A stretch of 64,000 bases of DNA from an uncultured Terracidiphilus sp. GTDB taxonomy: Bacteria > Acidobacteriota > Terriglobia > Terriglobales > Acidobacteriaceae. The DNA is taken from positions 2,328 to 66,327 of the forward strand of contig CAZMWL010000022.1 of NCBI GenBank assembly GCA_964569985.1, given 5' to 3'. Both the position numbers and the translations under genes were made by a program. Under the pieces are notes generated by a model that was not told the origin of the DNA, made no database searches, and saw nothing but the letters and a program-made list of their open reading frames with translations. Below are positions 8,595 through 52,886 of this stretch, piece by piece. Numbering within the stretch: the first letter of the stretch is position 1; each line of letters starts with the position of its first letter.

Positions 8595-8671
8595 TGGTCG
8601 GGGCGGAGGGATTCGAACCCCCGACCCTCTGCTCCCAAAGCAGATGCGCTACCAGACTGCGCTACGCCCCG
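8595..8671 (-). tRNA. tRNA-Pro(TGG)
   Basis: CGGGGCGTAGCGCAG...TCTGC-TTTGGGA-GCAGA...GGTTCGAATCC...CCCCGACCA. Confidence 0.97.
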
Positions 8672-8824
8672 ATTTCCTCTTTCGATTGTAACCCGGATCG
8701 ATTTCGTTCGACGCACCTCGCGAAGCCACTCGACTCGCCGCATCTGGATCATTCCGCGGCAGATTTGCCCCGCTCCGCCCACCCGCATCCAATTCGCTTC
8801 GATGCTACAATCGATAGGGTAGAC

Positions 8825-8900
8825 GGCGGCTATAGTTCAGCGGCAGAACGCCTGACTGTGGCTCAGGATGTCGTGGGTTCGATCCCCACTAGCCGCCCCA
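8825..8900 (+). tRNA. tRNA-His(GTG)
   Basis: Cloverleaf with CCTGA-CTGTGGC-TCAGG anticodon arm, G-1 and encoded CCA. Confidence 0.97.
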
Positions 8901-8918
8901 ACATACCCTCCTAAGTCG

Positions 8919-10043: not shown

Positions 10044-10050
10044 AGAACGT

Positions 10051-10127
10051 GGGCGAGTAGCTCAATCGGATAGAGCACCGGCCTTCTAAGCCGGGGGTTG
10101 TGGGTTCGATTCCCGCCTCGCCTACCA
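10051..10127 (+). tRNA. tRNA-Arg(TCT)
   Basis: CCGGC-CTTCTAA-GCCGG anticodon arm, GGTTCGATTCC, CCA end. Confidence 0.96.
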
Positions 10128-14058: not shown

Positions 14059-15564
14059 TTACTCAGCCACGCCGTCGTTCACTTGCGCGCAGTCCATGCG
14101 CAAGGTTCCGTTGTCGTTGAAGACCAATCCATAGAAACGGAAAAGGCCGCCCACGCCTATCGCGCTCGAATTGAGCATCTGCGTGCTGCTGTCGGCGTAG
14201 ACCAAAACGCTATGTGGACCCGTGAGGAGGGTGGTTTGGCCTTGCTGATCGGCCAGATCCGGGAACAGGTCATACGAAGCAAGCGAGACTGTATACGTTG
14301 TAAATCCTTCCTCGCTGGAGACCTCACTGACAGTGCCGTTGATGGTTTGCGGCTGAAGGGTAACCGAGGTCGCCGGACTATAGGTGGGATTAGCTCCGCC
14401 AAAGTTTGGTGAATTTGTGGTGACGGAAACGTTCTGGCCGGCAACGACATTTGTGGCAGTAAAAACCGCCGAAAAGGGAAGGCTTTGAGTGTTCGTGAGC
14501 TGCCCGGAGACTTGAAACACCGCGTTGCCAAAGCTGAAAGGCCCACCGCCAAGGACATAGGCTGAATTAAACAGGAAACCCTGTTCTTCAAGGGCGCCCG
14601 CAAACAGGTAAGGTTCAGAGGAGTCGACAAACTCCACCGGCCCTTTCCAGACGCTCAGATCGGTTGCGTCCGAGTTGTCCACTTCAACCCGCGTCGCCAG
14701 CAGCGAACTGTCCGGCTGAACGATCACGTCCATATCCATCGGCATGCCTGCGGTTAGCGCGGAAACTCCGCTGATGCCTTGATACACCGTGCTGCTGCTT
14801 GTACTGACATGCCAGCCTGGACCGTCGCCCTGAGTGGTCACGGTGAAGCTGCCTTCCGCAGTGTCGACCGAGGCGACGATACCATCTAAAGCGGTCAGCT
14901 TTCCATTCTCGATATTCGTTGGCTGCGACGAAAAGGCGATGGGCGTCAGATCGAACGTCGGCGTGATGGAAAATGTTCCGGATCCGTTATTGGGATCGCA
15001 GGACGCGAACGTCGCCGACTTCGATACCAGGAGATTGAGCACCAGACCCATGGTGTCGCCCGTGACCGTGATGGGAGCTGGCAGATTCACGGTCACCTGG
15101 GAGGACGGCGTAGCCCCGTAAGCGTATGTGCTGTTGTCAAGTTCGCCGCTTGAGGTGAGAGTTGCGCAGGAGAATTGAGCCTCTCCCATGGTGGCTGTCG
15201 CTGCGGTGTAAATGTCCTGCGGAATGCTTATCGTGAAGAGCGGCTCCGCTGTGCCGTTCACATGGATGAATTCTTCGCTGGCAGGCGTGGTCAGCAGGCT
15301 CACCGTTTTACCCGACTTGCTGGTTAGCGTGAGGCTCGTGAAACCGAAGCTGATTTGCACCAGCTGGTCGTTCGCGGTGCTTGTCGCGAGCACCGTAACG
15401 GCGGTGTTGCCGCTGGGGGTGCTTCCCGTCCCGCCGCTACCGCTTCCACCGCTACCGCCGCACCCCGCGGCGAACAACGCAGCCAGCGAAAGAACAAGCG
15501 GAGGCAACAAATGCGAAAAACGAGAACCAAGGCGATAAGAAAAAGAGCACGATCCGTCGTTCAT
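14059..15564 (-). CDS. Putative lipoprotein, DUF5666-like
   Basis: Lipobox FAAGC, Gly/Ser linker, GIVASVD...FTV...LLATRVEV repeats; Ser/Thr-rich. Confidence 0.7.
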   Translation of the reverse strand: MNDGSCSFSYRLGSRFSHLLPPLVLSLAALFAAGCGGSGGSGSGGTGSTPSGNTAVTVLATSTANDQLVQISFGFTSLTLTSKSGKTVSLLTTPASEEFIHVNGTAEPLFTISIPQDIYTAATATMGEAQFSCATLTSSGELDNSTYAYGATPSSQVTVNLPAPITVTGDTMGLVLNLLVSKSATFASCDPNNGSGTFSITPTFDLTPIAFSSQPTNIENGKLTALDGIVASVDTAEGSFTVTTQGDGPGWHVSTSSSTVYQGISGVSALTAGMPMDMDVIVQPDSSLLATRVEVDNSDATDLSVWKGPVEFVDSSEPYLFAGALEEQGFLFNSAYVLGGGPFSFGNAVFQVSGQLTNTQSLPFSAVFTATNVVAGQNVSVTTNSPNFGGANPTYSPATSVTLQPQTINGTVSEVSSEEGFTTYTVSLASYDLFPDLADQQGQTTLLTGPHSVLVYADSSTQMLNSSAIGVGGLFRFYGLVFNDNGTLRMDCAQVNDGVAE

Positions 15565-17408: not shown

Positions 17409-17521
17409 CAGCTAATAGCTCCTAGCTGCCAGCTCCTTGCCGTTCCTGCCGTGCGAACTGCTTGATACACAACAAGATCCAACCCAGTATGGAGGAGCTA
17501 GCAGCTAGAGGCTAGAAGCTG
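17409..17521. repeat. Inverted heptamer arrays (TAGCT../..AGCTA)
   Basis: CAGCTAA TAGCTCC TAGCTGC CAGCTCC ... GGAGCTA GCAGCTA GAGGCTA GAAGCTG. Confidence 0.7.
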
Positions 17522-19080
17522 GGGCTGCGTTTCTTCCCGGCCAGCTCCGCCCGCGCCGCCAGCCCGATCGCCATGGCCATCACGCGGTCGTCGTGCGTTC
17601 CCGCCTGCGCCCCCGAGCTCCCATTCGGTTGCCGCACAAAGCTGCGGCACTCGCCCAGCAGCCGCCGGCTCTGGAAACACTCCGGCTCTTCCACCAGCGC
17701 CGCATCCAGCCGCGAGATCGCCCCTGGCCGGCTCACGCTGGTCGTCAGCCAACCTGCCTGCCCGCCCTGCCGGTAAATCCGTTCGTACTTGCACGCTGTC
17801 TCCGCCAGCGCCAGCACGCCGCTGCCGTGGTTGTTTCGCTCCACCACCAGCCACGCCCCGTTGTACTCGGCGGCCAGCCCGGTCACAAACCGCGCCAGCT
17901 CCAGTCCGCCCACGTGCCCGGCAAACTCCGCGCACTGCAAGCCCGTCTCCATCTCCAGCACCTGCGCAGCGGAGTAGTCGCCGTTGCTCCCGCCTCCCGC
18001 CGGATCCACCGCCACCACATATTCTTTTTCTCTCACCGGCGGCAGCCATATCTCGAGCTCTCCGTTCCTCCGCCGCTCCACCGGTTCCGGCGCCGTCTTC
18101 AGCCGCGCTTCAACCGCTGCCAGCTCAAATACGCTCTCGCCGCTCGCCAAAAAGCAGCTCTCTTCGTCTTCTGCATACTCCTGCGCCGTCAGCCCGCGAA
18201 AATCCGCCCGGATCCGCCGCCGGTACGCAATCTGCGAGAGATTCAGCCCGGCCCGCTTCATCAGCACGCGCTCTTCGTCCGTCAGGCTCGCCTCATCCGC
18301 TGCTTCCGACTGGTAGCGCTGCTCCATCCACCATGGGAAAAAGTGTCGCACCGCCCCCGTTTCATCGGCCTTGCGCCATTCCTCGTAGAAGCACCCGCCC
18401 ACGCCCTGCGGCGTCGACTCCAGAATCAGCTCTCCACCCGGCGCCATGGCCGCGCGCAAACCCGCCAGAATATCCGCCGCATCGCCAGGCCACCGCGCCA
18501 ACTCGCTGCAATGCAGGTTCTGCACCGTCAATCCCCGCCCCGCGTTCCGGTCCGCCGCGCTCACCACGCGGTATTCCGCGTCGATTTTCGGAAACACAAT
18601 CTGCCGCACGTTCGCCCGTCCCGTTTTAAGCGGACCCTCGCGCAGACCATCCGGCAGCCAATCCAGAAACCGGTGCACGATGCGGAAAATCTCCTCCGCC
18701 GCCTCCTGCGTGTGCGCCACTTCCAGCGTCAACGTACCTGGCTGCGTAATTGTCTTCAGAAAGAACCGCGCCGCCACCCACGTCGTCAACCCCATCTGCC
18801 GCGCCTTTAGCACAATGTTCCGTTGTCCGCGCTTGTTCTCGAAGGCCTCTTGCACCTTATTCGCTCTCAACTTGCCCGGTCGCCCCTCGCGCGTCCTCAC
18901 CACCAGCAATCGTTCCGCCAGCGCCAGGATCACGGTAAGCCCTTGCATGCCCGCGGGGCGATGGTCCAGAACCTTCCCCAGGAACTCCAGGTCGCTCCGA
19001 TCCGTCTCCTCGTTCCGCAATGCTTCCAGGCGCAGTCCCCACGCATCAATCTTCGGCTCGCAATCTCCTCTCGCTTCCAC
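17512..19080 (-). CDS. Phage terminase large subunit-like protein
   Basis: Walker A LKARQMGLTT, Walker B variant NLHCSE, motif III ESTPQG, RNase H-like nuclease VAVDPAGG...ERNNHG...HDDRVMA. Confidence 0.88.
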   Translation of the reverse strand: MEARGDCEPKIDAWGLRLEALRNEETDRSDLEFLGKVLDHRPAGMQGLTVILALAERLLVVRTREGRPGKLRANKVQEAFENKRGQRNIVLKARQMGLTTWVAARFFLKTITQPGTLTLEVAHTQEAAEEIFRIVHRFLDWLPDGLREGPLKTGRANVRQIVFPKIDAEYRVVSAADRNAGRGLTVQNLHCSELARWPGDAADILAGLRAAMAPGGELILESTPQGVGGCFYEEWRKADETGAVRHFFPWWMEQRYQSEAADEASLTDEERVLMKRAGLNLSQIAYRRRIRADFRGLTAQEYAEDEESCFLASGESVFELAAVEARLKTAPEPVERRRNGELEIWLPPVREKEYVVAVDPAGGGSNGDYSAAQVLEMETGLQCAEFAGHVGGLELARFVTGLAAEYNGAWLVVERNNHGSGVLALAETACKYERIYRQGGQAGWLTTSVSRPGAISRLDAALVEEPECFQSRRLLGECRSFVRQPNGSSGAQAGTHDDRVMAMAIGLAARAELAGKKRSPSF

Positions 19081-19133: not shown

Positions 19134-19172
19134 TGCCCCATCCTTTTCGCGCTTTTTGCGGAAAGGATGGGA
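19134..19172 (+). repeat. REP-like palindrome, copy 1
   Basis: TGCCCCATCCTTTTCGC-GCTTTTT-GCGGAAAGGATGGGA. Confidence 0.85.
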
Positions 19173-19188
19173 CGCGACAATCAGGTCC

Positions 19189-20922
19189 CTAGTTCCCGCC
19201 GCACCAATACCTCACCGTGTACGCTGTTGAAGCCGTCAGCGCCGTATTCGCCGTGATCGTAATCGCGGTCGTGCTCTCCGCCCACGTGGTGGTCGTGAGC
19301 ACCGCGGTTGCGCTCTCTGTCGTTACCATGCAGTTGGCGTAGTTCGAATGTGTGTTGGGGAACGAGATCGTTGCCAGTGTCCCGGTCGTCGGGCTCGTTC
19401 CTGTCGTCAGCGTCACTGTGCCGCTCACGCCGTCGCACGCGTGGTTGGTCGCGCAGGCAATTGCCGGGCTCGTTCCCGCTGCCGCACCAGCCGTAAAGGT
19501 CATCGTGCCGCTGCCCATGAAAAACTTGCCCGACACAAATCCCGTCGCCGTCGTGTTGCCGCTTCCCGTCACGGTCAACACCGTCGCCGGGGACGACGCC
19601 CCGTTTTGTAACACCAGCCCTGAGGTGCCGCTGTTCGCCGCGCAGTTCAGGCACACCTCGTAGGCGCCGTTGCCGGCGTTGATGTTGGTATTTCCGCCGC
19701 CCTGGTAGATCGTTAAACGGTCGAGACTGCTGTGGGCGGCGTCTTGAATGTGGTACGTGTAACTCGTATCGACCGTGTTATCCCACTCCGCCGTCCCGCT
19801 GTAGTTCTGCCACTGCAGCTCCTCGGTCTGCGCCGCGCTGGTTCCCGCCTGGATCTCCACAATATTCGTCGCCGCCGACGCGTTATTGAAGAGATTCGCG
19901 CTGCCCTTCAGGGTCGATGACGCGGTAGTGGTTACGCTCGTCGCGCTGGCCACGCCCAAAGTCGGCGTGGTCAGTGCAGGGCTGGTCGCCAGCACCACGC
20001 TGCCGCTGCCCGTGGTTGCGCATGCCACAATCTGGCTGCTCGAATTCGTGCAATTCGCTGAAGACGAAACCGGCACGCTCGCCCCGTCCACCTGCGTTGC
20101 GTTGGCATTGCCTAATTGGCCCTCTAACTGCCAGTAAGTCCCGTCGTAAGTCGCGCTGATCCAATGCCCCGCCAGCACGTCGTTCGCCGCCAGCGTACTG
20201 CTTTTTCCCCATTTCATCAGCGTTGCCGCCGCCGCTCCGTTCACTGCCAGCGTCGCCGATCCCGTGTTCGCCGCATTGAAATTGATCGAGATTGTGTCGC
20301 CCGCCGCCGGCGTAAAACTTGGCGAAGTCGTGCATGTGTAAGCGTTCCCGCTGTTCGTCGTCACGCACGTGCGCGGCGCGGATTCGTTGTGCGCCGTTGC
20401 TGCCGCGGGCTGGCTACTCGCGTTGGTCGCAATCAGGTTCGCCGAAGTGGGCACCGCGCCGCCGTTAATCTTGCTCACAGTCGTCGCGCTCTGCGTCCCC
20501 GTCACGTCCCCGCTCAAGCTGCCCGTGAAGCTCGTCGCACTGGCCGCACTGGTCGCATTTGGCACCGCCGTCGACCCGATCGCGCTCACAATCTGCGCTC
20601 CCGTCGCAGCAGTCGGCGCCGACCCCGTCGAAAAATAGCCCAGGCCCGTGAAGGCCGCCGAGCAGCTCACCGCCGTCCCGCTTCCGGCGTAGTACGCCAC
20701 CGCATAAGCCGCAGCACAGTTGCTCACCGTGCCCGATCCGCTAGGCGTTTGAAATACAAAACTGTCCGTGCCGCTGTTGTAGTAAAGGTAGCCCGTGGCC
20801 AGTGTCGGAACCGGCACTCCGCCGATCCCGTTGGCGCTTGGCGCCGGCAATCCCGTCGACGCCTGGCCCCACGCGACTACTGGCGCTGCCGCTAAAATCC
20901 AAACCCACAACCAACGCTTCAT
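19189..20922 (-). CDS. Secreted tail-fibre-like protein (577 aa)
   Basis: MKRWLWVWILAAAPVVAWGQ signal peptide after GGAG; Thr/Ala/Ser/Gly-rich; NAYTCT...INFNAANTGSATLAVNG and LSGDVTG motifs resemble phage fibre proteins. Confidence 0.6.
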   Translation of the reverse strand: MKRWLWVWILAAAPVVAWGQASTGLPAPSANGIGGVPVPTLATGYLYYNSGTDSFVFQTPSGSGTVSNCAAAYAVAYYAGSGTAVSCSAAFTGLGYFSTGSAPTAATGAQIVSAIGSTAVPNATSAASATSFTGSLSGDVTGTQSATTVSKINGGAVPTSANLIATNASSQPAAATAHNESAPRTCVTTNSGNAYTCTTSPSFTPAAGDTISINFNAANTGSATLAVNGAAAATLMKWGKSSTLAANDVLAGHWISATYDGTYWQLEGQLGNANATQVDGASVPVSSSANCTNSSSQIVACATTGSGSVVLATSPALTTPTLGVASATSVTTTASSTLKGSANLFNNASAATNIVEIQAGTSAAQTEELQWQNYSGTAEWDNTVDTSYTYHIQDAAHSSLDRLTIYQGGGNTNINAGNGAYEVCLNCAANSGTSGLVLQNGASSPATVLTVTGSGNTTATGFVSGKFFMGSGTMTFTAGAAAGTSPAIACATNHACDGVSGTVTLTTGTSPTTGTLATISFPNTHSNYANCMVTTESATAVLTTTTWAESTTAITITANTALTASTAYTVRYWCGGN

Positions 20923-21021
20923 CTTTCTTCTCCTCGCTCCCTGTCCACACGACAGCGCGCGGCCGGCGACATGCGCGCCCTGCTGCGTTCCCGCTCCGGC
21001 CATCGTTCTGTTGTTCTCTGG

Positions 21022-21076
21022 ATCCCTCGGTCCTCGGCCCCTCGGTCCTTTAGCCCCGAAGTCCCGTAGCCCCTGC
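21022..21076. repeat. Degenerate octamer array (G.CCC..)
   Basis: GCCCCTCG GTCCTTTA GCCCCGAA GTCCCGTA GCCCCTGC; similar arrays near 28219-28240 and 31722-31746. Confidence 0.6.
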
Positions 21077-21079
21077 TTT

Positions 21080-24000
21080 TTATTGCGGCACGTTGGTCGA
21101 TCCGGCATCTCCATGCCAGTCGCCCAGTCCGGCGATATACGTTCCCGTCTGCTCGGAACAGGTGCTTGCTGTCGTGCCCACAGTCACGCCGCCCTTCCAG
21201 TGCGCAGGCCACGTCCACGTGTACGGTCCGCCGCTTGCTGGCTGACAAATGAAGATCGTCACCTTCCCGCCGCCGGCGCCCGAGCCGATCGACGCCGTCA
21301 CATTGCCGCTCAGCACGTAAGTCGCCTCCGCGCGGTCCGTCGCAGGCAGTGTGATCGATCCGCTCGCCGACGAGTTGTATGTCTCATTCGGAGCATTCAG
21401 CGCCACGCCATTCACCTGATAGCCGTTAGTGGACGTGCTTTCGCACGTCGCCACCGATCCCGCAGGCATTCCCGGAGGTACACATCCGTGGTACTGATCC
21501 CGCCGTGCCTCTTCAATCTGATCCGGAGTCAAATTGCAGGTCCCCGCCGCTGTACACGCGGGATTGTTTGGGCCGGGAATGAATGCCCAGAATGGCTCTG
21601 CCCACTGGTTGCCGACGCCCGCAACATTGCCTCCAAGTCCGAGATAGAAAATGGCCCCACCGCCGCTATCAATACTGCCCTTCAGAATCGTAGCGATGGC
21701 TACTTGGGGCGACCAGCCGTTATTCTGTAATCCCGTACCGAAAGCCTGCGGCCAGCTACCTTCAGTCGAGCACGGTCCAGAGCCGCAGTATGTGGTAGCG
21801 AATATCTCACCGTCTCCGCCAGCTAAGTGAAAACTATTGTTCTGTCCTGAGTTAGTATCGCCCGTAGTCTGCGGCTGATTTACGGGTCTGACCCACGCTC
21901 CGTAAATGTAGTGATCCCCCGCGTAGGTCTGGCGAGTATCTTGAGCGAGGAGGAATCTCGGATTAAAAGTAGAACTGGTGTTGCCAACAGCCTGTATCGA
22001 AGGCATCTGGCCGCCTGGCCCATCGGGACCGGGCACGGCCGTAGCCGTACAACCGCCTCCGCACGACGACTCCATCGCAGCCACCGTAAATCCTGTAACC
22101 GGAAGTGAACCAAACGGGAGAATCTGTGGTCCGAAGCCAGAACCTATGTTCTGGTACTCGCCCACGCTCTGATTGCCTTGGTTGTAGGTGCCGCTGGGAC
22201 CCGTCTCGTTCAATGGAATAGCGAAAGTGGCGCCCTCCGTCAGATTGTCGATAACTTGTCCGTTGAAATAGGCATTCGTAAATCCGTTGCCATAGAGAAC
22301 GTTGTTGTCGCTCTGCACGCAGCCGGTAGGGTCGATGTTCCCATCTGTGTAGCCCAGCAAATTCTGCGGCCATTCGGAAATGTTGTCTTGCAGAAACTGA
22401 TCTTTGAGGGAAAGGCAGTTTGGTGCCTGGATGCCGAAGCGATTGTCTACGGTGACAGCGTTCCCCCAGGACTCTTCGTAGGTAGAGCTCGTGATGCGTG
22501 GCATTCCCACAATAGCGCGAACGCCGCTGCCATCAATTTTGATACCACCACCCAGAAATGCGCTGCCCTGATCAATATCCGATTGGGCGCATCCAGACCC
22601 GTTAGAGGAGTAGTAGCTGCCCACAGGCGCATCGGAATCGCAGCGCAGAGAGTAGGGATAGGCAGGCTGCGAGCATCCGCCGCTCGGACAGGCAGACAGC
22701 TCCGGGACGGAAACAGTTATATCGTGGAACTGATTGAGGTAACACGCGGAGCACTCCATTGCACCCGAAGCTATGAACGGAGATGCCTGCGCACCTACGT
22801 GGTCCAACACAAGATTTGTGCTGCCTTCGGCCCAGAAAGCCATGCCGTAGGAATATTGGAAATTGAGGTCCTTCCACGTCTGGGGACCGTAGGTGTTGAA
22901 TGCAGGACCAGCCGCCACTTCACCCCATTCGTCGCTGGAAGAATGCGTGTGGCTGGTCATGATTGTGACCTGGTTCGCGCCGCACGCGTTGTAAGTCACA
23001 CCGTTGAATGTTCCCGCTGTACCGTTCGAGCACAGAATGCGTGCCGACTCATACGCATCTTCGTTGAACCCCGTCACCGTGCATCCAGTCGCCGTTGAGG
23101 GCGTGGTGTCGGCCTGGAAAATCGTAAGGGTCTGCGCCGTGTAGTCTGAATGATTCACCACTTGGTTTGTTGTGTTAAACGAAGCATCAGAGCAGCCAGA
23201 AACGGTCACGAGTTCACCCGGCGGGATGCGGGTGTAGCCAGCGAGTGTATAGGTCGTCTGCCCATTAGAGGTGCGGGTAGCCGTAGCCGTAGAGGTCGCC
23301 AAGCCAGTAGCCGTGATAGCCGACCCTACTGGCAGGTTTGCAACGCCGCATGGCGAACCGTTGACCGTCCCGCTAAAGTTTGGGGTGATGGTGGTTGCTG
23401 TGTTCGCGGTGAGGATCGCAGTGCCGAGAGTCCCGTAACATCCCGGACCAGAAATATATGCCGGAACGGTCCCCGTCTGGAACTGGTTGGGTCCGGGTCC
23501 ACCGTCCCCAAACCAATCTTCAAAACCCAATCCTACGAGAGTCGAACCTAAGTTGAGAGCACCTTGCAGCTTGAATATTACAGTGCCTGCCGAAGGGCCG
23601 GTGAGGATAGAGGAGTTTTGCAGGAAGCATCCCACGCCTCCGTTGCAGGGAAGAAACACAGTCCCCGTGCTTCCTGGAGTTGAATCCACGTTGTTGATGC
23701 ACGCCTGCACCGCGCTGTCGATGGGCGTGTGCCCGTCGATGATCGCGCCATATGCGCGAATGTCGCACACCGGTGAGAGGGCAGGAATCGACGCTGCCGC
23801 CTTCACGTTGCCCGTCACGATGATTCCGTTGTTCCCATCCGACGCCACGCCCGGCAGCAGGTTGGCAATGGCTCCGCTGGCGCTTGTCGCTCCCGTTCCG
23901 CCCGACGCCAATGGAACTGCATTCATGCCGCCGATCGTCGTGCCACTGGCGGTGTAATACGCAATCTGTCCCGAGTTTCCCGAATTAATGGTGCCGCTCG

Positions 24001-27000
24001 TTCCTCCCGATCCCGATCCGGATCCAGATCCAGATCCGCATGCCGCTCCCGTGTTGGTGAGATATCCAGATGTATCCACCTGCAGGCAGAAGTGCCCTGA
24101 AGACGCGGCCAGCCCCGGGAACTTGATACTCGTCGGACCCTGAAACGCCGCGACTAAGTTAGCGCTCGATCCCGAGTAGATGTCCGTCTCCGAGCCGGAT
24201 CCGCTTTCGTAATTCAGCCGGATATGTCCCGTCGCATTACTCGTATCAATATAGGTATCGCCGCTGTTCGAACTCTGGTACGCCTTCAAACTGTCCAGCC
24301 CGCCCAATGCCGAAATCAGCGCCCAGTTGTTGTACTGATCCTTCACCATGTACCACTGGCTGCTTCCGTTCCAGTCCTTATAGGTGTACGAACCCTTCTG
24401 GCTCGTCGTCAGTCCCGGCCACAGGTAGTAGTCCACCTCCGCGTCGGCGTTGTTACGCACCGTCATGGTCCCCGCCGATTGCGACGTCCCGCCCACCTGC
24501 AGGGTTCCCATGAATTGCGCGTTTCCGGCGTTGTCCACAGTCGCCACCGTCGTTGGCGTTGCCCCGCCGCTTGAGAAGCTCACGCCACCCGTTCCGGCAT
24601 TGCTCGAACAGTTGAAGCACACGTTTCCCGTGCCCGCCGCATTCAACGACGTCTGGTTGTTGGTGCTGCTCTGCCCGTGATTCCACTGCTCGATCTGCAG
24701 CCGGTACACGTTGTTCAGCAGGTCCTGCACCTGGTAAAGCTGCTGCCCGCTCGTGCCGTCGCTGAAGCCGTAGATCCAGCGGTATCCGTAATCCGTCTGA
24801 ATCTCGTTCAGTAGTCCGCGCTCATTCCCCGCGCCGATTCCCAGCCGGAAATGATTGGTCAGCGTCGCGTCCTGCTGGCTTCCATACCAGTCACCATTCA
24901 ATGCGTTGAAACTCCGGTGAAATGTATCGAGGAAGCTGTTGCGCGTGCCGTTGTCGGTTAGCTTTCCCGTGAACATCGTCCCGCCGGTCATCCAGTCGTT
25001 GTACTGGCTGCCCGCGTCCGCCACGATTTGGTTCGCCGAGTTCTCGTTGCGCAGTCCCACGATCGTGTTGTTCTGCGCATTCGCTCCCAGATGCAATGCT
25101 GTCGCGCATCCCTCCACATCTCCGCCCGTAAACGTGTTGCCGTCGCCCTGTTGCAGGTTGATCCCATACGTCCCGCTCATCGGACTTCCGCTCGCCGTCG
25201 GGCAATCGATGTGCAGCCGCACAAATGTGCTCGCATTCATCCAGTCCGTCGTCGCCGGATTCGCCACCTGATGCCCGATCGCATTCACTGCGGTCCCAAA
25301 CCCGCCAAACTCATCGTCCAAAAATGTGCCGCCCGTGTAATTTCCGGTTCCATCCAGCGTCATGCCCGTCTGATTTTGATTGCCCAGGAAGTACAAGCTT
25401 TCGAGATCCAACTCCTGCGTCCGGTAAGCCACCAGCCCCTGCGCCGTTGCGCTTGTCGCTGCGGTGGTATTGATGGCCACGTTATCCATGTGGAAGCCCG
25501 GCGTATCCACGGCATACGTCGGATCGCCCACTTGGACCATCGCGCTCGTGCCCGAGTAGGCAAACACCGTCCCGCCCTGGCTTCCGCTCGCCTGCGTTCC
25601 GCCGCGCAGTGCGCATCCCCGTAGCGACACGTTCCGCGTCCCCGCCGTCACCACAATCTGGTTCGCCGTCGCAATCGTTGCGCAGGGCAGCAGCACCGCG
25701 GTGTTCGATGTGGCAATCGTCAGGCTCGATGCCATCGACAAATTCCCCGCAAAATTCCGCGCGTCGCACGTGCCGCCATAACTCGCATTCAACGCGTTCA
25801 CGCACGCCTGGATTTTCGCGCCGATGTCCGCGCCCGGAAACTGATCCACCTGGAGCGCCGCTCCCACGTTGCTGTTCCCCACCAACGCGGCATAAGTGCC
25901 GCCGCCCGGCAGCGTGCCGCCTCCACCATCCACCTGCGTCCCGTAGCTCGCGGAACTTCCCGCGTTCCAAACCGTGTATCCGCCGTTGCCCTTCAGCAGA
26001 TTTCCGGCAAAGAACGTCATATCCTGCCCGCCAATCAGGTTCACCGCCGCTGCCGTATCCCATGTTCCCGGCTCGTTGACGCTCGCCGTCGTAGTCGACG
26101 AGCAGCCGACTCCGCCCTGCGTCACCGTCACGCCGGCAATCGATCCGTTCGCATTCACCGCCGCCGTGGCCTGCGCCGTGCAACTCCCGCTGAACGCCAC
26201 CGGCACGCTGGTCCCATACGGATCCCATCCCAGTCCGTGTTCGCTGCCCACCGTCACCGCAGTCACCGCGCCGCCTGCCGCCGTCACCGCCAATGCCGGC
26301 TGCACAGCGTTCCACGTGGGCATCACCACCGCGTTCCGCACTGTCCATCCCTGCGCGGTTCCGCTCAGGTCCAGCACCAGCCCCGTCGGCGGCTCGCCCG
26401 TGGCCGCGGAATTGCCCGCCATCGCCACCACGTTATCCAGCACGTTGTTCGATCCCGTTGCCGCCGTGAACGCGTGCGTCGCCTGTATCGTCACGTTCTG
26501 CCAGCGATTCGAATCGGCATTCAATCCCGCCGGCGCTGTCACCGGAAGCGCCGGAATCACCACGCCCGTGTTCACACCGCGAATGTCGATGTTCCGGAAA
26601 TCGCTCCACTGCGGCCACTGCGCCAGGTACAGTCCGCACGTGTGTGTCGAATGCGCTCCCGGATATTGCGCCGCCATCGGATCCACGCCCGTAGTCGCAA
26701 TTTCCACGTTCTCCACTTCCGCCACGCGCAGCCCATTTCCTCCCGCGCCCGTCGTCGCCTGCATGGCAATTGCGCAATTGCCCACCCACCACGCAGCGCC
26801 CGTGCCCGCCGTTCCCGTCAAGCCATTGCCGCCCGTCGAAAAAATCGAATTCTCCTCGATCGCCCGGCTTAGTTGGCAAGCGCCTGCCGCCGCGCGCCCC
26901 TCCGCAGGCGAGCACGATTCATCTACGCTCTGGTCTACATAAATCGTCAGGTCGTGCAGCCGCGTATAACTCAAGATGTTCAGCGCGTCAGGCCCGCTCA

Positions 27001-28150
27001 CCAGCACGTCTTCGCCCGGAAATCCCATCAACGCCGAAACCTGTTTCCCCAATCCTCCAATCGACTCCCCGCGCCAGCTCAGCGTCCGCGTCTTGCACGT
27101 GCCTTCGGGAAGCAGCAGCGCCACGCTGTGCACGTGGGCATAACTCAGCGCCGCCTGCAGAGCGCTCGTATCATCCGTCACGCCGTCGCACACCGCGCCG
27201 AACTCCTTCACGCTGCGCTCCGTCTGCTGCGATCCGCTCGTCCGCCAATCCACCACCTTCACGCCGTTCGCATTCGCGAACGTGTCCGTTCCCGCGTAAT
27301 TCGGCGGAATCTCCATTGCCCCAGTCGTTCCTGCCGCGTTCATTGCCGCCTGCAGTGTCGACTGTCCGCTCGCCGCCGTGGGCGCCTCCACGCCGTTTAC
27401 CGCCGGCGTCGTCAGTGCGCCCGTCATGTTTCCGCCCGCCAGTGGAACCGCCGTCGCCACCTGCGTGTCCACGTAGTGCTTGGTCGAGGCCTGCATCGGT
27501 TGCGTCGGGTCCGCGTTCAGATAGAGCGGTCCGCTCAGCGTTCCGCCCGACGCCGTCAGCAGGCTCTCCGTCAACTCCGTGATCGCCTGGTCCACGTACG
27601 CCTTGCTCACCGCCTGCACCGCCTGCGTCGCCGGCATAATCTGCACCTGCACCTGCGCCAGCGTCGCATTTGCCGCCGCCGGAACCACCCAGTACTGCGT
27701 GTTCACCGTCCCGTCGCTCATGTAGTAAACGGCCGTGTAGTACTCTCCCGCGGGCGTCGCTCCCTGGTTCGGCGCGAGGTTCACGCTTACAAATCCGTCC
27801 GGCGCAATCGTCACCGTCATCGAGTCCGCGGCAACGGCCTGGCCCGCCGCGGTCGTAAACCCCGGCCAGCTGATCACCAGAGTCCCTGCGCCTGGCTCAC
27901 CCGTTGCCAGATACACCGTCCCCTGTACGGTCGTCGTCGTCACACCCTGCGCCCACGCCGTCGCCGCCAGCCCCATCGCCAGCATTCCTGCGGCAATACG
28001 CATCCCCATCCGCACCAGCGATCCGTGCCCCATCCTTTTCGCGCCTTTTGCGAAAAGGGTGGGAGCGCAGCTAACTAGCTCGCTTGCGGACTTATTGACT
28101 CGCCGGCTCGGCGTCCGCAACCCTTCGTTCTTCATGAGCTTCATTCCCAT
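21080..28150 (-). CDS. Giant tailspike/beta-helix-like protein with signal peptide (up to 2356 aa; start uncertain)
   Basis: MRIAAGMLAMGLAATAWAQ; fibre repeat GGTLSGPL...ASTKHYVD; pectate-lyase-3-type caps SVKEFGAVCDGVTDDT, DQFPGADIGAKIQAC and DIRAYGAIIDG. Confidence 0.7.
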   Translation of the reverse strand: MGMKLMKNEGLRTPSRRVNKSASELVSCAPTLFAKGAKRMGHGSLVRMGMRIAAGMLAMGLAATAWAQGVTTTTVQGTVYLATGEPGAGTLVISWPGFTTAAGQAVAADSMTVTIAPDGFVSVNLAPNQGATPAGEYYTAVYYMSDGTVNTQYWVVPAAANATLAQVQVQIMPATQAVQAVSKAYVDQAITELTESLLTASGGTLSGPLYLNADPTQPMQASTKHYVDTQVATAVPLAGGNMTGALTTPAVNGVEAPTAASGQSTLQAAMNAAGTTGAMEIPPNYAGTDTFANANGVKVVDWRTSGSQQTERSVKEFGAVCDGVTDDTSALQAALSYAHVHSVALLLPEGTCKTRTLSWRGESIGGLGKQVSALMGFPGEDVLVSGPDALNILSYTRLHDLTIYVDQSVDESCSPAEGRAAAGACQLSRAIEENSIFSTGGNGLTGTAGTGAAWWVGNCAIAMQATTGAGGNGLRVAEVENVEIATTGVDPMAAQYPGAHSTHTCGLYLAQWPQWSDFRNIDIRGVNTGVVIPALPVTAPAGLNADSNRWQNVTIQATHAFTAATGSNNVLDNVVAMAGNSAATGEPPTGLVLDLSGTAQGWTVRNAVVMPTWNAVQPALAVTAAGGAVTAVTVGSEHGLGWDPYGTSVPVAFSGSCTAQATAAVNANGSIAGVTVTQGGVGCSSTTTASVNEPGTWDTAAAVNLIGGQDMTFFAGNLLKGNGGYTVWNAGSSASYGTQVDGGGGTLPGGGTYAALVGNSNVGAALQVDQFPGADIGAKIQACVNALNASYGGTCDARNFAGNLSMASSLTIATSNTAVLLPCATIATANQIVVTAGTRNVSLRGCALRGGTQASGSQGGTVFAYSGTSAMVQVGDPTYAVDTPGFHMDNVAINTTAATSATAQGLVAYRTQELDLESLYFLGNQNQTGMTLDGTGNYTGGTFLDDEFGGFGTAVNAIGHQVANPATTDWMNASTFVRLHIDCPTASGSPMSGTYGINLQQGDGNTFTGGDVEGCATALHLGANAQNNTIVGLRNENSANQIVADAGSQYNDWMTGGTMFTGKLTDNGTRNSFLDTFHRSFNALNGDWYGSQQDATLTNHFRLGIGAGNERGLLNEIQTDYGYRWIYGFSDGTSGQQLYQVQDLLNNVYRLQIEQWNHGQSSTNNQTSLNAAGTGNVCFNCSSNAGTGGVSFSSGGATPTTVATVDNAGNAQFMGTLQVGGTSQSAGTMTVRNNADAEVDYYLWPGLTTSQKGSYTYKDWNGSSQWYMVKDQYNNWALISALGGLDSLKAYQSSNSGDTYIDTSNATGHIRLNYESGSGSETDIYSGSSANLVAAFQGPTSIKFPGLAASSGHFCLQVDTSGYLTNTGAACGSGSGSGSGSGGTSGTINSGNSGQIAYYTASGTTIGGMNAVPLASGGTGATSASGAIANLLPGVASDGNNGIIVTGNVKAAASIPALSPVCDIRAYGAIIDGHTPIDSAVQACINNVDSTPGSTGTVFLPCNGGVGCFLQNSSILTGPSAGTVIFKLQGALNLGSTLVGLGFEDWFGDGGPGPNQFQTGTVPAYISGPGCYGTLGTAILTANTATTITPNFSGTVNGSPCGVANLPVGSAITATGLATSTATATRTSNGQTTYTLAGYTRIPPGELVTVSGCSDASFNTTNQVVNHSDYTAQTLTIFQADTTPSTATGCTVTGFNEDAYESARILCSNGTAGTFNGVTYNACGANQVTIMTSHTHSSSDEWGEVAAGPAFNTYGPQTWKDLNFQYSYGMAFWAEGSTNLVLDHVGAQASPFIASGAMECSACYLNQFHDITVSVPELSACPSGGCSQPAYPYSLRCDSDAPVGSYYSSNGSGCAQSDIDQGSAFLGGGIKIDGSGVRAIVGMPRITSSTYEESWGNAVTVDNRFGIQAPNCLSLKDQFLQDNISEWPQNLLGYTDGNIDPTGCVQSDNNVLYGNGFTNAYFNGQVIDNLTEGATFAIPLNETGPSGTYNQGNQSVGEYQNIGSGFGPQILPFGSLPVTGFTVAAMESSCGGGCTATAVPGPDGPGGQMPSIQAVGNTSSTFNPRFLLAQDTRQTYAGDHYIYGAWVRPVNQPQTTGDTNSGQNNSFHLAGGDGEIFATTYCGSGPCSTEGSWPQAFGTGLQNNGWSPQVAIATILKGSIDSGGGAIFYLGLGGNVAGVGNQWAEPFWAFIPGPNNPACTAAGTCNLTPDQIEEARRDQYHGCVPPGMPAGSVATCESTSTNGYQVNGVALNAPNETYNSSASGSITLPATDRAEATYVLSGNVTASIGSGAGGGKVTIFICQPASGGPYTWTWPAHWKGGVTVGTTASTCSEQTGTYIAGLGDWHGDAGSTNVPQ
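28026..28064 (+). repeat. REP-like palindrome, copy 2
   Basis: TGCCCCATCCTTTTCGC-GCCTTTT-GCGAAAAGGGTGGGA, at the 5' end of the giant ORF. Confidence 0.85.
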
Positions 28151-28305: not shown

Positions 28306-28728
28306 CTAACTCGCCTTCTGGTCTCTGCCGTCTTCCATGCTTTCGTCCCACTCCGGCTCCGACGCCAGCAGCTCCGCCCAGTTCGGCCCACTCCGCTTCT
28401 TTTTCTTCTTCGTGTCCTTGTCCTGCTTCTTCTTCTCAATCAGCGACAGCATCATCTCCGTCCCGTGCATGTCGCCTTCTTGCGCTTTGGTCACCAGCTT
28501 CTTGGCAATCGCTTCGCTCTTCGCCTTCACCACCGCTTTCACCGCGTGACGCAGCTTTTTCCGTGCTCCCTTGTAGTCCTCAAGATCCACGGGAACACTC
28601 TCCCCATTCTTCTTACCGTTCGTCTTCTCTGGCTTCGCCGCGTTGCCGGACCCCGCCGCCCTTTTCGTCGTCGCGCCCTTCTTCTCTTGCTCCGTAGTGC
28701 ATTTCTGGTCCACGATGCTGTTGCTCAT
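28306..28728 (-). CDS. Small basic protein, possible terminase small subunit
   Basis: GAGGTG RBS before the ATG; Lys-rich; helical EAIAKKLVTKAQEGD segment; first gene of the terminase-containing run. Confidence 0.55.
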   Translation of the reverse strand: MSNSIVDQKCTTEQEKKGATTKRAAGSGNAAKPEKTNGKKNGESVPVDLEDYKGARKKLRHAVKAVVKAKSEAIAKKLVTKAQEGDMHGTEMMLSLIEKKKQDKDTKKKKKRSGPNWAELLASEPEWDESMEDGRDQKAS

Positions 28729-28858: not shown

Positions 28859-28897
28859 TGCCCCATCCTTTTCGCGTTCTTTGCGAAAAGGATGGGA
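28859..28897 (+). repeat. REP-like palindrome, copy 3
   Basis: TGCCCCATCCTTTTCGC-GTTCTTT-GCGAAAAGGATGGGA. Confidence 0.85.
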
Positions 28898-31689: not shown

Positions 31690-32038
31690 TCCTGCGCTTG
31701 CTTCCTTACTCGGAGGTCACGCAGTCCCTGAGTCCCTTAGTCCCTGCCTTTCTGCTCCCCATCTGGCCCCGACACAGTCTATTCAGCAGAGCTGCGTTGC
31801 CGACTGGTTCTGTGCCAGAGGTAGGCTCGTCCTGATACACTTTTTTCTTGGAGTATTCAGTGTGCGTCTCGCCTCTTCGGCCGCCTGCGGCAGTGTGCCG
31901 CCGGGGATCTCGAGCTTGGGTGCGATCCACCTGTTGCGGGCCGACCCTGAGCATTAAAAGGGAAGGCAATAACTCAATTTTCTTTACGTGTTCGTAGCGA
32001 CCGTTCCGCGGTTCGACGGCGCGGAGCGGGGAGGATTC

Positions 32039-34570
32039 ATGCGGCGGTTCTTGACGCTTGTTTGTTTGCTTGGCCTGGCCCTTCCGGCTGGGATTTCCAT
32101 CTCCGGTTGCGTGCGCAACCCGGCAGGAAACTACTGCAACGGCGAGGGCTACGGCCCGAAGGACACCGACGTTACTCAACTCATCCTGCAGCCGCAGGTT
32201 GCCGGCATCTCGCTGGCCTACGGGCAGACCACCCAGATACAGAGCCCTTCTGCTTACACCTGCAAGGGCGTTGCGGCCTCGGTTGGCACCAACCAGATTA
32301 ACTACGGCACCTCCAACAATCAGTTGGTCGACATCTCTCCCTCCGGCCAGCTCTGCGCCGGCACCTGGAACCGCAATACCGGCGGCGGCATTGCCGACTA
32401 CACCTACTGCAACTACCCCAATCCCTTGCCGTCCTCCCAGGGCCTGCCCTACGCCGTTGCCTATCTCACGGCCACTGCCGATTCCGTCACCTCCAACCCT
32501 GTCGCCGTATACATTCACGCGCCGGTCACCGCCATCAGTTTGGTCACCACCTCGCTTTCCAGCTCTTCGCCCCAGCAATGCTTCTCCCAGAACCAGCAGG
32601 CTCAGCTCGACGCCCAGGCCTGCTACGTCAACAACGGCACGCAATACGAGTTCTGCGCTCCGCCTACGGTATCCTCGGCAAACTATGTTTGCGCGGGTGG
32701 CCTGGCTCCGGGCGTCACTTCGGTCCCCAGTTGCGGATCCTCCATCGGCACCCTCAACTTCTCGGTCAGCAATTCATCCGTCGCCACCTTCAACTCGACC
32801 ACCGACGTTCTTACCGCCCAGCAGCCCGGCACCACCTCCATCACCGCCACCATTGCACAATCGGCATCGTCGGCTGGCTACTTCTCCACCTGCCCGCCGA
32901 AGTCCATTAGCGTTTCGCTGGCCAACGGATCCACCAATGGCGTCGTCGCCCAGGGTGTCACGCAGAACCTCACCACCACGGTCATCGACACCAACAACAA
33001 CCCCATCACCGGCTTGAGCCTCCAATACGAGTCCACCAACATCGTTGACGTCGGGGCCACCAGTTCGGGCACCATCACCGCCGCCTTCCCCGGTGTCGGA
33101 TCGGTCTATGCGGTCTGTGAGCCGGGAGCCTGCAATCCTGCCCCCATCAATGAGTTCGGCCTCAATGGCACCGGCCTGCCGCTCTCTTCCAATCCGGTCA
33201 GCATCATCGTCCCCGGCACCACCAGCGACTACGTCTGGTTCGCCGCGCCCGGACAGTCGCAGTATTTCGCTTCCATGGAACTGCTTACCGGAAACCCCGG
33301 TTCCTCCGCGCGCCTGCCCTTCGTGCCCAACTCCATGGTCATGGACCCGGGCGGCAACAACCTCTATTTCGGTTCGCCCCGCGAGTTGATGGTCTTCTCG
33401 ACGGTAAGCAACTCCCTCACCAACCAGAACACCGCGGTGCCCGGCGTCGTGCTAGCCGTCTCGCCCAGCAACAGTGAGCTGGTCATCAACGATCAGATCC
33501 GCGGAGTGTTTTACATTTACAACACCGCCTCCGGCTTGGGATCTTCCTACGGGGGATTGGGAGTCGCTGCCGAATGGACGCCCGATTCTAATACGGCCTA
33601 CATCGTCGATAGCGCCGCGGCGGGTGCGGGCCACACCAACACGCTCTACGTCTACAACGTCAACCTCGGCTGGAGCACCTACCCTCTTACCGCTTCCGGC
33701 GGTTCTCAGAACGTAGCCGTTACGGTTCCCGGCATCGGCGCGTATCTCGCCGGCTTTCCAACCGTCGCCCACACCTGGTGCCCCTCCGGCACGGTCGGCA
33801 ACAACGCCAGCATTCAGTTCTTTCCGCAAAGCGATACCGTCAATCAGCCCACCAACGTCCTGGGGGCCACAAGCAATGGGGAGCACATGCTCGGCGCTTC
33901 GCTCAGCAGCAACAGCATCACGCTTGTCGACATCGGGCTCGACATTTCGGCCACTCCGCTGTGCCCTGAAGCCACCACCGGCACACCGCCCAATCAGGTG
34001 GAGACCATGAAGCCTCTCTCCACCAACCCCACGCTCGATGGCACGGTGAATCTCATCCAAGTCACCAATGCGACTGCCGTCAACCAGATCGTCACTGGCA
34101 CGGCGCCCACCACCAATTCCACCACCACGGCCGCGCCCATCGCCTTCGTCACCTACTCGACACCCAGCACGGCCACCACGGCAGCCGAGCTCCCGTTCTA
34201 CCTGCCACAGCCCCTGTCGAACGGAGTCGGCCCCGTCGGCCCCGTGAGCTACGTCAAGTTTGCCGACGCTTCCTCGGCCACGCCGCCCATCGCTCCCCTC
34301 ACCGGCGCGTTTTCGCCCGATAACTCCATCTTCTTTGTCTCCACCGCCGGCGACAACGAGATCCACTTCATCAGCATTCCCACCAGCGTCAGCATTGCCA
34401 ATCCGCCCACCGATTCCCAACAGTACAGTCCCGCTCTGCCCGCCTGTACGCCGGTTGTGGAGGGCGGCAACGACGCCGGCTGTCTCTATCCGACGACTTT
34501 GCCGGCGCCAACTCCCAGCACTGTGGTTCCCGCAACCGTCATCACTGTCAAGCCGCGCTCGGTCACATAG
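32039..34570 (+). CDS. Cys-rich lipoprotein with Ig-like and propeller-like regions
   Basis: GGAGG RBS; lipobox ISGC; SVSNSSVATF...QPGTTSITAT Ig-like segment; FSPDNSIFFV. Confidence 0.7.
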   Translation: MRRFLTLVCLLGLALPAGISISGCVRNPAGNYCNGEGYGPKDTDVTQLILQPQVAGISLAYGQTTQIQSPSAYTCKGVAASVGTNQINYGTSNNQLVDISPSGQLCAGTWNRNTGGGIADYTYCNYPNPLPSSQGLPYAVAYLTATADSVTSNPVAVYIHAPVTAISLVTTSLSSSSPQQCFSQNQQAQLDAQACYVNNGTQYEFCAPPTVSSANYVCAGGLAPGVTSVPSCGSSIGTLNFSVSNSSVATFNSTTDVLTAQQPGTTSITATIAQSASSAGYFSTCPPKSISVSLANGSTNGVVAQGVTQNLTTTVIDTNNNPITGLSLQYESTNIVDVGATSSGTITAAFPGVGSVYAVCEPGACNPAPINEFGLNGTGLPLSSNPVSIIVPGTTSDYVWFAAPGQSQYFASMELLTGNPGSSARLPFVPNSMVMDPGGNNLYFGSPRELMVFSTVSNSLTNQNTAVPGVVLAVSPSNSELVINDQIRGVFYIYNTASGLGSSYGGLGVAAEWTPDSNTAYIVDSAAAGAGHTNTLYVYNVNLGWSTYPLTASGGSQNVAVTVPGIGAYLAGFPTVAHTWCPSGTVGNNASIQFFPQSDTVNQPTNVLGATSNGEHMLGASLSSNSITLVDIGLDISATPLCPEATTGTPPNQVETMKPLSTNPTLDGTVNLIQVTNATAVNQIVTGTAPTTNSTTTAAPIAFVTYSTPSTATTAAELPFYLPQPLSNGVGPVGPVSYVKFADASSATPPIAPLTGAFSPDNSIFFVSTAGDNEIHFISIPTSVSIANPPTDSQQYSPALPACTPVVEGGNDAGCLYPTTLPAPTPSTVVPATVITVKPRSVT

Positions 34571-52847: not shown

Positions 52848-52886
52848 GCCCCCATCCTTTTCGCGCTCTATGCGAAAAGGGTGGGA
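52848..52886 (+). repeat. REP-like palindrome, copy 4
   Basis: CCCCATCCTTTTCGC-GCTCTAT-GCGAAAAGGGTGGGA between convergent genes. Confidence 0.85.

What the first reader, a model, noticed from the sequence alone, without database searches (positions are those of the whole stretch)
19189..28150. Tailspike/fibre-like proteins that carry Sec-type signal peptides
Seen: both large proteins begin with n-h-c signal sequences ending AWAQ and AWGQ, yet contain fibre repeats (TKHYVD, LSGDVTG, NAANTGSATLAVNG) and many paired cysteines. Established: tailed-phage structural proteins assemble in the cytoplasm and normally lack signal peptides. Inference: either the particle is finished in the periplasm or at the membrane (disulfide-bonded spikes), or the spikes were co-opted as host adhesins/depolymerases while still linked to a terminase gene.
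Basis: partly seen in the sequence, partly recalled or inferred. Interest (0 to 1): 0.75.

Follow-up and report, generated by a model that had tools for sequence, protein, structure and literature searches.

The report
Exported spikes of domesticated phage particle
Two phage-type spike genes beside a DNA-packaging gene start with predicted secretion signals and belong to a virus-derived particle gene set that most sampled members of one soil-bacterial family inherit intact, so these spikes, like those of some free phages of the same bacteria, likely fold outside the cytoplasm and would join the particle only late, a route I did not find described for tailed phages.

Summary
Observation largely confirmed. 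Both ORFs have n-h-c leaders. In homologues the leader diverges (16% identity) while the mature start is conserved (78%), and 95 of 106 pass a signal-peptide heuristic (SignalP not available). Cysteines are not abundant, but mature counts are even in 78 of 87 full-length homologues. The large protein has a phage fibre anchor domain and a tailspike-type beta-helix.

This is not a decayed prophage. Spike and terminase are one of three pieces of a single-copy, syntenic head/short-tail cluster (terminase in 102, capsid in 100, spike in 126 of 150 family genomes, inferred Acidobacteriaceae). Its tree follows rpoB, dN/dS is 0.04-0.29, and no integrase, replication, lysin or tape-measure gene was found: GTA-like. 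The exported-fibre trait also occurs in cultured lytic phages Tunturi 1, 2 and 5 (not 3 or 4), which favours real virion parts over host adhesins.

Export, docking on a particle and DNA transfer are all untested. Papers treat what is probably this cluster as prophage. This scan reported both the element and the signal-peptide fibres before on other DNA.

The parts
28306..28728 (-). Small ORF (140 aa from ATG 28728), candidate small terminase
   Evidence: Weak DUF5681 hit, E 0.0077, below cut-off; similar small helical-looking ORFs precede the spike in relatives; role inferred
21080..28150 (-). Large spike/fibre protein, 2356 aa, mosaic; mature chain from Gln68 has 46 Cys
27950..28150 (-). Predicted Sec leader of the large spike (67 aa from the first ATG; later in-frame ATGs give shorter ones), ending AWA|Q
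28022..28065 (.). Palindromic genomic repeat (114 BLAST hits in the genome) lying in frame inside the leader's n-region
27638..27949 (-). Conserved N-terminal beta-sandwich (residues 68-171), predicted particle-anchoring domain
   Evidence: pLDDT about 80; Foldseek to Bxb1 tail tip 9d93_La, A-1(L) neck fibre 8keg_a, XM1 neck 7kjk_A3 and Streptomyces phage BRock tail fibre, rmsd 3.6 over 107 columns; present in 39 of 39 copies
27440..27631 (-). Fibre repeat unit(s) holding TKHYVD
24890..25861 (-). Right-handed beta-helix (residues about 764-1087), tailspike/polysaccharide-lyase fold
   Evidence: VIA Z 23.9 best; phage tailspikes CBA120 TSP2 Z 21.8 and phi29 gp12 Z 21.4
19189..20922 (-). Second fibre protein, 577 aa with its own leader and 12 mature Cys, no anchor domain; equals the C-terminal module of single long spikes in relatives
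   Evidence: 82% identity over 468 aa to the C-terminus of P0050
20866..20922 (-). Predicted Sec leader of the second protein, ending AWG|Q
   Evidence: similar leader in G017
17512..19080 (-). Terminase large subunit, intact, single copy
   Evidence: phrog_2 E 1e-26; conserved ATPase and nuclease-type motifs across 36 homologues (motif names recalled)

Best explanation
The two proteins are likely the host-recognition spikes of a domesticated, gene-transfer-agent-like phage particle, predicted to be exported through Sec, cleaved at the AxA|Q site and folded with disulfides in the periplasm, and they would dock onto cytoplasm-built particles through the conserved N-terminal anchor when the producing cell's inner membrane breaks. 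Shown: the leaders, their conservation pattern, cysteine parity, the folds, and membership in a vertically inherited, purifying-selected head/short-tail cluster with no mobility genes found. Inferred: a CI-like repressor and a sigma-4-like activator switch the cluster on; portal, protease, scaffold, capsid, adaptor, closure, terminator, tube and hub build a head with a stub tail (no tape measure found); the terminase fills it with host DNA; small membrane-type proteins help lyse the cell; the variable beta-helix and knob modules bind or cut recipient polysaccharide. My odds by step: leaders are functional 0.9; spikes end up on a particle 0.7; the particle carries random host DNA as a GTA 0.5.
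For: Leaders: anchored at the conserved mature start, 95 of 106 library homologues pass an n-h-c heuristic (95 of 99 with 20 or more residues before the domain); leader identity 16% against 78% just downstream. A stricter version from the annotated start passes 81 of 106, against 0 of 44 proteins sharing only the fibre repeat and 52 of 399 ordinary genes of this genome. Cysteine parity. Folds. Element: terminase in 22 of 24 genus and 102 of 150 family genomes, capsid in 100 of 150, spike domain in 126 of 150, nearly always single copy; outside the family 1 weak capsid hit and 2 spike-domain hits in 230 genomes. One contiguous cluster in 20 of 20 family genomes examined, same order in 19, with purE-purK or pyruvate dehydrogenase E2 on the right in 16. 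The rest of the set is present in this genome on C37/C17 and C69. The hub is a gp27/Tal-like fold. All 9 rpoB splits with support 0.95 or more recur in the element tree, 12 of 25 splits overall, 28 genomes; dN/dS 0.04-0.29. No integrase, replication, lysin or tape-measure family among 60 unassigned genes in or beside the 20 clusters, and no tape-measure family in this genome. True phages share the trait: Tunturi 1 gp12, 13, 14, 16, 17 (5 of 24 genes tested) and Tunturi 5 gp337-342 (plus a doubtful gp345; 7 of 18) pass, and no capsid, portal or terminase tested does; Tunturi 2 has the same leaders by eye; all 8 large ones have even mature Cys counts. Two viral contigs with siphophage-type tail modules carry the same anchor domain behind a leader (L152, L153).
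Against: No export, cleavage, disulfide, particle or DNA transfer was observed; SignalP was not run. The AlphaFold model is poor overall (mean pLDDT 44; only residues 1-104 and about 697-984 are usable), and the anchor-domain Foldseek E-values are modest (2e-3 to 2e-2 in PDB). The second protein has no anchor domain, so how it would attach is unknown. Tunturi 3 (0 of 24) and Tunturi 4 (0 of 20) have no such leaders, and Tunturi 1 also has leader-less candidates (gp30, gp33). About a third of family genomes lack the core, about nine show split terminase matches, and 3 keep a full-length spike after the core is deleted while 3 hold a stand-alone copy. In distant pairs the element's dS exceeds that of rpoB (1.23 against 0.40 for G088-G183). 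No lysin was found, so the release route is open. The capsid call rests on position and a weak PHROG hit (E 0.021), with no PDB sequence match; the tube call rests on an Atlas lead of 0.85.
Confidence: 0.6

Rival explanations
1. The proteins are exported but work free of the particle, as depolymerases or adhesins that help particles leave through the capsule or remodel the matrix; the particle uses the hub's lectin-like insert as its receptor binder.
For: The beta-helix matches secreted lyases as well as tailspikes. The second protein lacks the anchor. The hub model has lectin-fold matches. Three genomes keep a full spike without the core.
Against: The most conserved part is the fibre-anchor-like domain (39 of 39 copies, dN/dS 0.04-0.29), while distal modules are swapped as in receptor-binding proteins. 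In Tunturi 1 and 5 the leader-bearing genes fill the fibre/spike positions of the structural module.
Confidence: 0.17
2. The spikes were co-opted as host surface adhesins in the manner of Bdellovibrio MAT fibres, and the link to the terminase is a relic.
For: The spike domain is in more genomes (126) than terminase (102) or capsid (100). Three stand-alone copies exist, two beside polysaccharide-export-like genes (neighbours read by eye). MAT fibres show the precedent (PMC10769870, passages).
Against: Of 19 spike-only family genomes examined, 14 are internal deletions at the same site, 11 of them with the spike truncated or fused to right-end genes, and 2 end at a contig edge. The gene is single copy and directly upstream of the terminase, not an expanded family. 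Lytic phages carry the trait.
Confidence: 0.1
3. The spikes do mature outside the cytoplasm and join a particle, but the particle is not a GTA: it serves in defence, competition or as a decoy.
For: A HipA-like kinase and DUF3037 sit inside the cluster. Unrelated large phages carry captured copies of its capsid gene (L096, L116, L117/L118). No tape measure was found.
Against: An intact terminase and portal under purifying selection imply DNA packaging. Tailocin-type killers lack head genes (recalled).
Confidence: 0.1
4. An ordinary or decaying prophage whose fibre genes have hydrophobic N-termini by chance.
For: Two papers treat what is probably this cluster as prophage. Losses and split genes occur.
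Against: Single copy, fixed site, tree congruence with rpoB, purifying selection, no integrase found, leaders in 95 of 106 homologues against 0 of 44 controls.
Confidence: 0.03

Closest known systems
'Cluster 153' acidobacterial prophages (Eichorst et al. 2018, PMC5900883) and 'group (ii)' Terriglobales proviruses (Demina et al. 2025, PMC11924767); passages read, supplements and figures not seen
   Same: Syntenic phage-like regions shared by many Terriglobales genomes; probably this element, by host range and description (sequence identity with those regions not tested)
   Different: Both papers read them as (pro)viruses; 'signal peptide' and 'gene transfer agent' occur 0 times in the main text of PMC11924767
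Tunturiibacter phages Tunturi 1, 2 (podoviruses) and 5 (myovirus), PMC11924767
   Same: Fibre/spike genes with n-h-c leaders, mostly ending at Gln, and even Cys counts; Tunturi 5 gp337 and gp341 share the fibre repeat unit with the large spike (E about 1e-10 to 1e-9)
   Different: Free lytic phages with replication and lysis genes; they did not match the anchor domain or the capsid; Tunturi 3 and 4 lack the trait
RcGTA-type gene transfer agents of Alphaproteobacteria (PMC6854486 passages; PMC5026251, PMC7296036, PMC10218006 search listing only)
   Same: Chromosomal, conserved head-tail gene set without replication genes, split over several loci in some genomes, with a small ORF upstream as candidate small terminase
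   Different: No close homology shown; RcGTA has a tape measure and cytoplasmic fibres (recalled); this element has no tape measure found, exported spikes, its own CI-like regulator and a HipA-like/DUF3037 pair; particle and transfer untested
Bdellovibrio MAT fibres (Caulton et al. 2024, PMC10769870, passages)
   Same: Phage-derived mosaic fibres with a signal peptide followed by a conserved beta-rich domain and variable tips
   Different: MATs are a 21-member host surface family; this spike is single copy and tied to a full particle gene set
Phage tailspikes and neck/tail-tip fibres (CBA120 TSP2, phi29 gp12, HK620 TSP, Bxb1 tail tip, A-1(L) neck fibre, XM1 neck)
   Same: Anchor domain plus beta-helix architecture
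   Different: Those fold in the cytoplasm without leaders (established knowledge, recalled); identity 10-21%

Membership tests
Sec/SPase I substrate | basic n-region, hydrophobic h-region, small residues at -3 and -1 | tested here: met
   heuristic only: 95 of 106 homologues, 0 of 44 controls
Sec/SPase I substrate | export and cleavage in vivo | not testable with these tools
   needs N-terminal proteomics or reporter fusions
Phage tailspike/fibre | particle-anchor domain plus beta-helix or fibre repeats | tested here: met
   (large protein); for the second protein only Atlas leads under 0.9 and homology to spike C-termini
Phage tailspike/fibre | trimer bound to the virion | not tested
Gene transfer agent | chromosomal head-tail genes with terminase and portal, no integrase or replication genes | tested here: met
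   capsid and tube assignments are weak by sequence
Gene transfer agent | vertical inheritance and purifying selection | tested here: met
Gene transfer agent | short small terminase without DNA-binding domain directly upstream of terL (PMC6854486) | tested here: inconclusive
   candidate of about 70-160 aa lies upstream of the spike, not of terL; weak DUF5681 hit
Gene transfer agent | particles package random host DNA and transfer it to recipients | not testable with these tools
   no particle or virome data for this element were obtained
Inducible prophage | integrase, replication and lysis modules; patchy distribution | tested here: not met
   a CI-like HTH gene is present
Bdellovibrio MAT adhesins | expanded host family unlinked to particle genes | tested here: not met
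   single copy upstream of terL in most genomes

The most novel reading that the evidence does not exclude
Several lineages of tailed phages of Acidobacteriota, and a family-wide gene transfer agent domesticated from one of them, build their virion in two compartments: heads and tails in the cytoplasm, receptor-binding spikes in the periplasm by Sec export and disulfide folding, joined at lysis or at the membrane. This would be a new assembly route for tailed dsDNA particles and an unrecognised GTA in a dominant soil and peat family.
Probability: 0.5. Interest if true: 0.9.

Novelty: new variant of a known kind. Interest (0 to 1): 0.8.

Why it matters
Tailed phage particles are taken to assemble wholly in the cytoplasm. 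Exported, disulfide-folded spikes would break that rule, and the claim can be tested now because cultured phages (Tunturi 1, 2, 5) and hosts exist. The carrier here is a conserved GTA-like element in about two thirds of a major soil family. If it packages host DNA, it is a candidate source of the cellular DNA seen in purified peat viromes (PMC6172770 raises GTAs as an explanation without naming this element; passages), and it means many acidobacterial 'proviruses' in virus catalogues are host genes (22 of 26 IMG/VR capsid hits were this cluster). The swapped beta-helix modules are also a large pool of candidate polysaccharide-active proteins.

Tried and rejected
Pfam and PHROG scans of the two proteins were uninformative. 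PDB sequence searches with capsid, tube and hub profiles found nothing meaningful. The capsid family PF05065 was not found in this genome. The second protein and the capsid had no match among GenBank phages. Expression: one metatranscriptome (X20, contigs only) has short low-depth contigs over protease, capsid and hub and equally over purK and typA, and almost none over the spikes; this cannot separate RNA from DNA and is not used. The complex prediction of anchor trimer with adaptor, closure and terminator was not available, so docking is untested. A VIA search for the hub was not run. Cysteine abundance as a sign of secretion was rejected; only parity holds. Literature searches for exported tail fibres and for an acidobacterial GTA listed no paper whose title or abstract describes either. 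The library covers open-licence PMC and bioRxiv only, I read passages of six papers, and the supplements of PMC5900883 and PMC11924767 were not opened and may bear on prior description. DsbA/DsbB in this genome were not searched. G427 (other family) gave no BLAST hit and was left out of those counts.
Full report
OBSERVATION. The window lies on contig C22 of the host genome G000. On the minus strand it holds a small ORF (28306-28728), a 2356-aa ORF (21080-28150), a second ORF (likely 19189-20922, 577 aa) and a terminase large subunit (17512-19080; phrog_2 E 1e-26), followed by rpmE and a dihydrouridine synthase gene. The large protein's leader is lengthened by an in-frame palindromic genomic repeat. 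I infer Acidobacteriaceae from Atlas taxa (Acidobacteriota), earlier scan notes and gene content.

ARE THE LEADERS REAL? I aligned the first 190 mature residues of 39 copies from 37 related genomes plus the window and searched 1.84 billion representatives. Of the best 150 hits, 106 hold the whole N-terminal domain, mostly after about 30 residues. With the cleavage site anchored at the conserved mature start, 95 of 106 pass an n-h-c heuristic. Seven of the 11 failures have under 20 residues before the domain. Leader identity is 16%, against 78% just downstream. A stricter test from the annotated start passes 81 of 106, 0 of the 44 hits sharing only the fibre repeat, and 52 of 399 ordinary genes of this genome. 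Cysteines are not enriched, but mature counts are even in 78 of 87 full-length homologues and 33 of 39 locus copies, while cytoplasmic element proteins show no such bias. That pattern is what disulfide pairing in an oxidising compartment predicts (inference). SignalP was not available.

WHAT ARE THE PROTEINS? AlphaFold on residues 68-1267 is confident only for an N-terminal beta-sandwich and a beta-helix. The sandwich matches phage neck, collar and tail-tip fibre domains at modest E-values. The helix matches tailspikes and polysaccharide lyases at Z 18-24. Across relatives the anchor is constant and distal modules are swapped. The second protein is the C-terminal module of longer one-piece spikes (82% over 468 aa to P0050), here a separate gene with its own leader and no anchor.

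WHAT DO THEY BELONG TO? The terminase is single copy in 22 of 24 genus and 102 of 150 family genomes, and in 0 of 16 genomes of a sister family. This genome has a portal split over contigs C37/C17, followed by protease-, scaffold-, capsid-, adaptor-, closure-, terminator-, tube- and hub-like genes. A CI-like HTH gene and a sigma-4-like gene lie on C69. The hub folds as a gp27/Tal-type baseplate hub; protease, scaffold, closure and terminator are named by position only. The capsid is in 100 of 150 family genomes at 64-92% identity for full-length matches, usually about 5 kb downstream of the terminase; the spike domain is in 126 of 150. Two unpublished genomes (G042, G061) are in these three tallies; without them the counts are 100, 98 and 124 of 148. 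In a phylum sample, matches outside the family were 1 weak capsid hit and 2 spike-domain hits in 230 genomes. In 20 well-assembled family genomes the set is one cluster of about 20 kb: regulator, activator, [phosphatase], spike(s), terminase, HipA-like kinase, DUF3037, portal to hub, and small membrane-type proteins. The order is the same in 19, and 16 have purE-purK or pyruvate dehydrogenase E2 on the right. No integrase, replication, lysin or tape-measure family was found among 60 unassigned genes in or beside the clusters, and no tape-measure family in G000. For 28 of 30 genomes, all 9 rpoB splits with support 0.95 or more recur in the element tree (12 of 25 splits overall), and distance correlations with rpoB are 0.72-0.83. 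dN/dS is 0.04-0.29 over 11 chosen pairs. dS matches rpoB in the closest pairs but exceeds it in some distant ones. This is a domesticated, GTA-like element, and the window holds one of its three pieces in this genome.

PARTICLE PART OR HOST ADHESIN? Twenty-six family genomes had the spike domain without capsid or full terminase; I examined 19. Fourteen are internal deletions at the usual site (11 with the spike truncated or fused, 3 full length), 2 end at a contig edge, and 3 are stand-alone copies elsewhere. Co-option therefore happens but is the exception. The stronger test came from true phages. Two viral contigs with siphophage-type tail modules (tape measure read by eye) carry the anchor domain behind a leader. 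Among cultured lytic Acidobacteriota phages (PMC11924767), Tunturi 1 (5 of 24 genes tested), Tunturi 2 (same genes, by eye) and Tunturi 5 (7 of 18, one doubtful) have leaders on the genes in the fibre/spike positions and on no capsid, portal or terminase tested; all 8 large ones have even mature Cys counts. Tunturi 3 (0 of 24) and 4 (0 of 20) have none. The paper's main text has no occurrence of 'signal peptide' or 'mass spectrometry', so the virion location of these proteins is annotation only.

MECHANISM. Most likely the spikes are exported by Sec, cleaved, disulfide-folded and trimerised in the periplasm, while heads with a stub tail are built and filled in the cytoplasm. The two meet when the inner membrane fails at lysis, and the anchor docks on the neck or tail tip. 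Every step after the leader and the fold is inferred. Rivals are free exported depolymerases (0.17), host adhesins (0.10), a non-GTA particle (0.10) and an ordinary prophage (0.03).

PRIOR KNOWLEDGE. Eichorst 2018 (PMC5900883, passages) and Demina 2025 (passages) describe shared Terriglobales 'prophage' groups that are probably this element; I did not compare sequences. Bdellovibrio MAT fibres are the known case of signal-peptide phage fibres used by a host (PMC10769870, passages). Searches listed nothing describing an acidobacterial GTA or exported virion fibres, within an open-access library. Earlier reports of this scan reached the same two readings on other DNA. One of them pointed me to the 'group (ii)' paper. 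The Tunturi test was run before I saw the notes on it. These notes are not independent support.

VERDICT. A real and surprising feature: a new variant of known kinds (GTA-like element, phage tailspike) with a predicted two-compartment assembly route that is untested but directly testable. Interest 0.8.

Noticed in passing
L116:1495-2388, L117/L118:10001-10969, L096:729-1718: Unrelated phage contigs (19-214 kb) carry a near full-length copy of this element's capsid gene (63-79% identity), away from its other genes (L096 also has the scaffold). The copies nest inside the element's tree, so they look captured; possibly decoys or hijacked capsids.
   Followed up: partly
L042:778-2651 (G000 C37); same position in most family clusters: A HipA_2 kinase and DUF3037 pair sits between terminase and portal, co-inherited and under purifying selection; one clade also has a dual-specificity phosphatase upstream of the spike. 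Possibly a kinase-phosphatase switch for particle production.
   Followed up: partly
L190-L208: Deletions of the structural core with differing endpoints, seen in 14 genomes, keep the CI-like, sigma-4-like and phosphatase genes and often fuse the spike's N-terminus in frame to right-end genes.
   Followed up: partly
window 28022-28065; similar copies near 19134-19172, 28859-28897, 52850-52886: A 44-bp palindromic repeat with 114 BLAST hits in the genome; one copy is translated in frame inside the spike leader, also in some homologues (P0069, P0070).
   Followed up: partly
L041:8991-9197 (G000 C17): A 207-nt metatranscriptome contig at depth 56, far above its neighbours, just downstream of the element's last gene; small RNA or 55-aa ORF.
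   Followed up: no
L211 (G000 C55:13054-13671): A second, weak terminase-like match (phrog_2, E 4e-9) elsewhere in the genome.
   Followed up: no
window 8595-10127: Three tRNA genes (Pro, His, Arg) about 7 kb from the terminase; no integrase seen beside them.
   Followed up: no
window 14059-15564 and 31988-34570: Two large lipoprotein-like ORFs (DUF5666; no family) flank the locus.
   Followed up: no
L062/L082, L097, L099, L114: A rearranged form of the cluster, with head-tail genes placed before spike and terminase, in G185 and three IMG/VR contigs.
   Followed up: no
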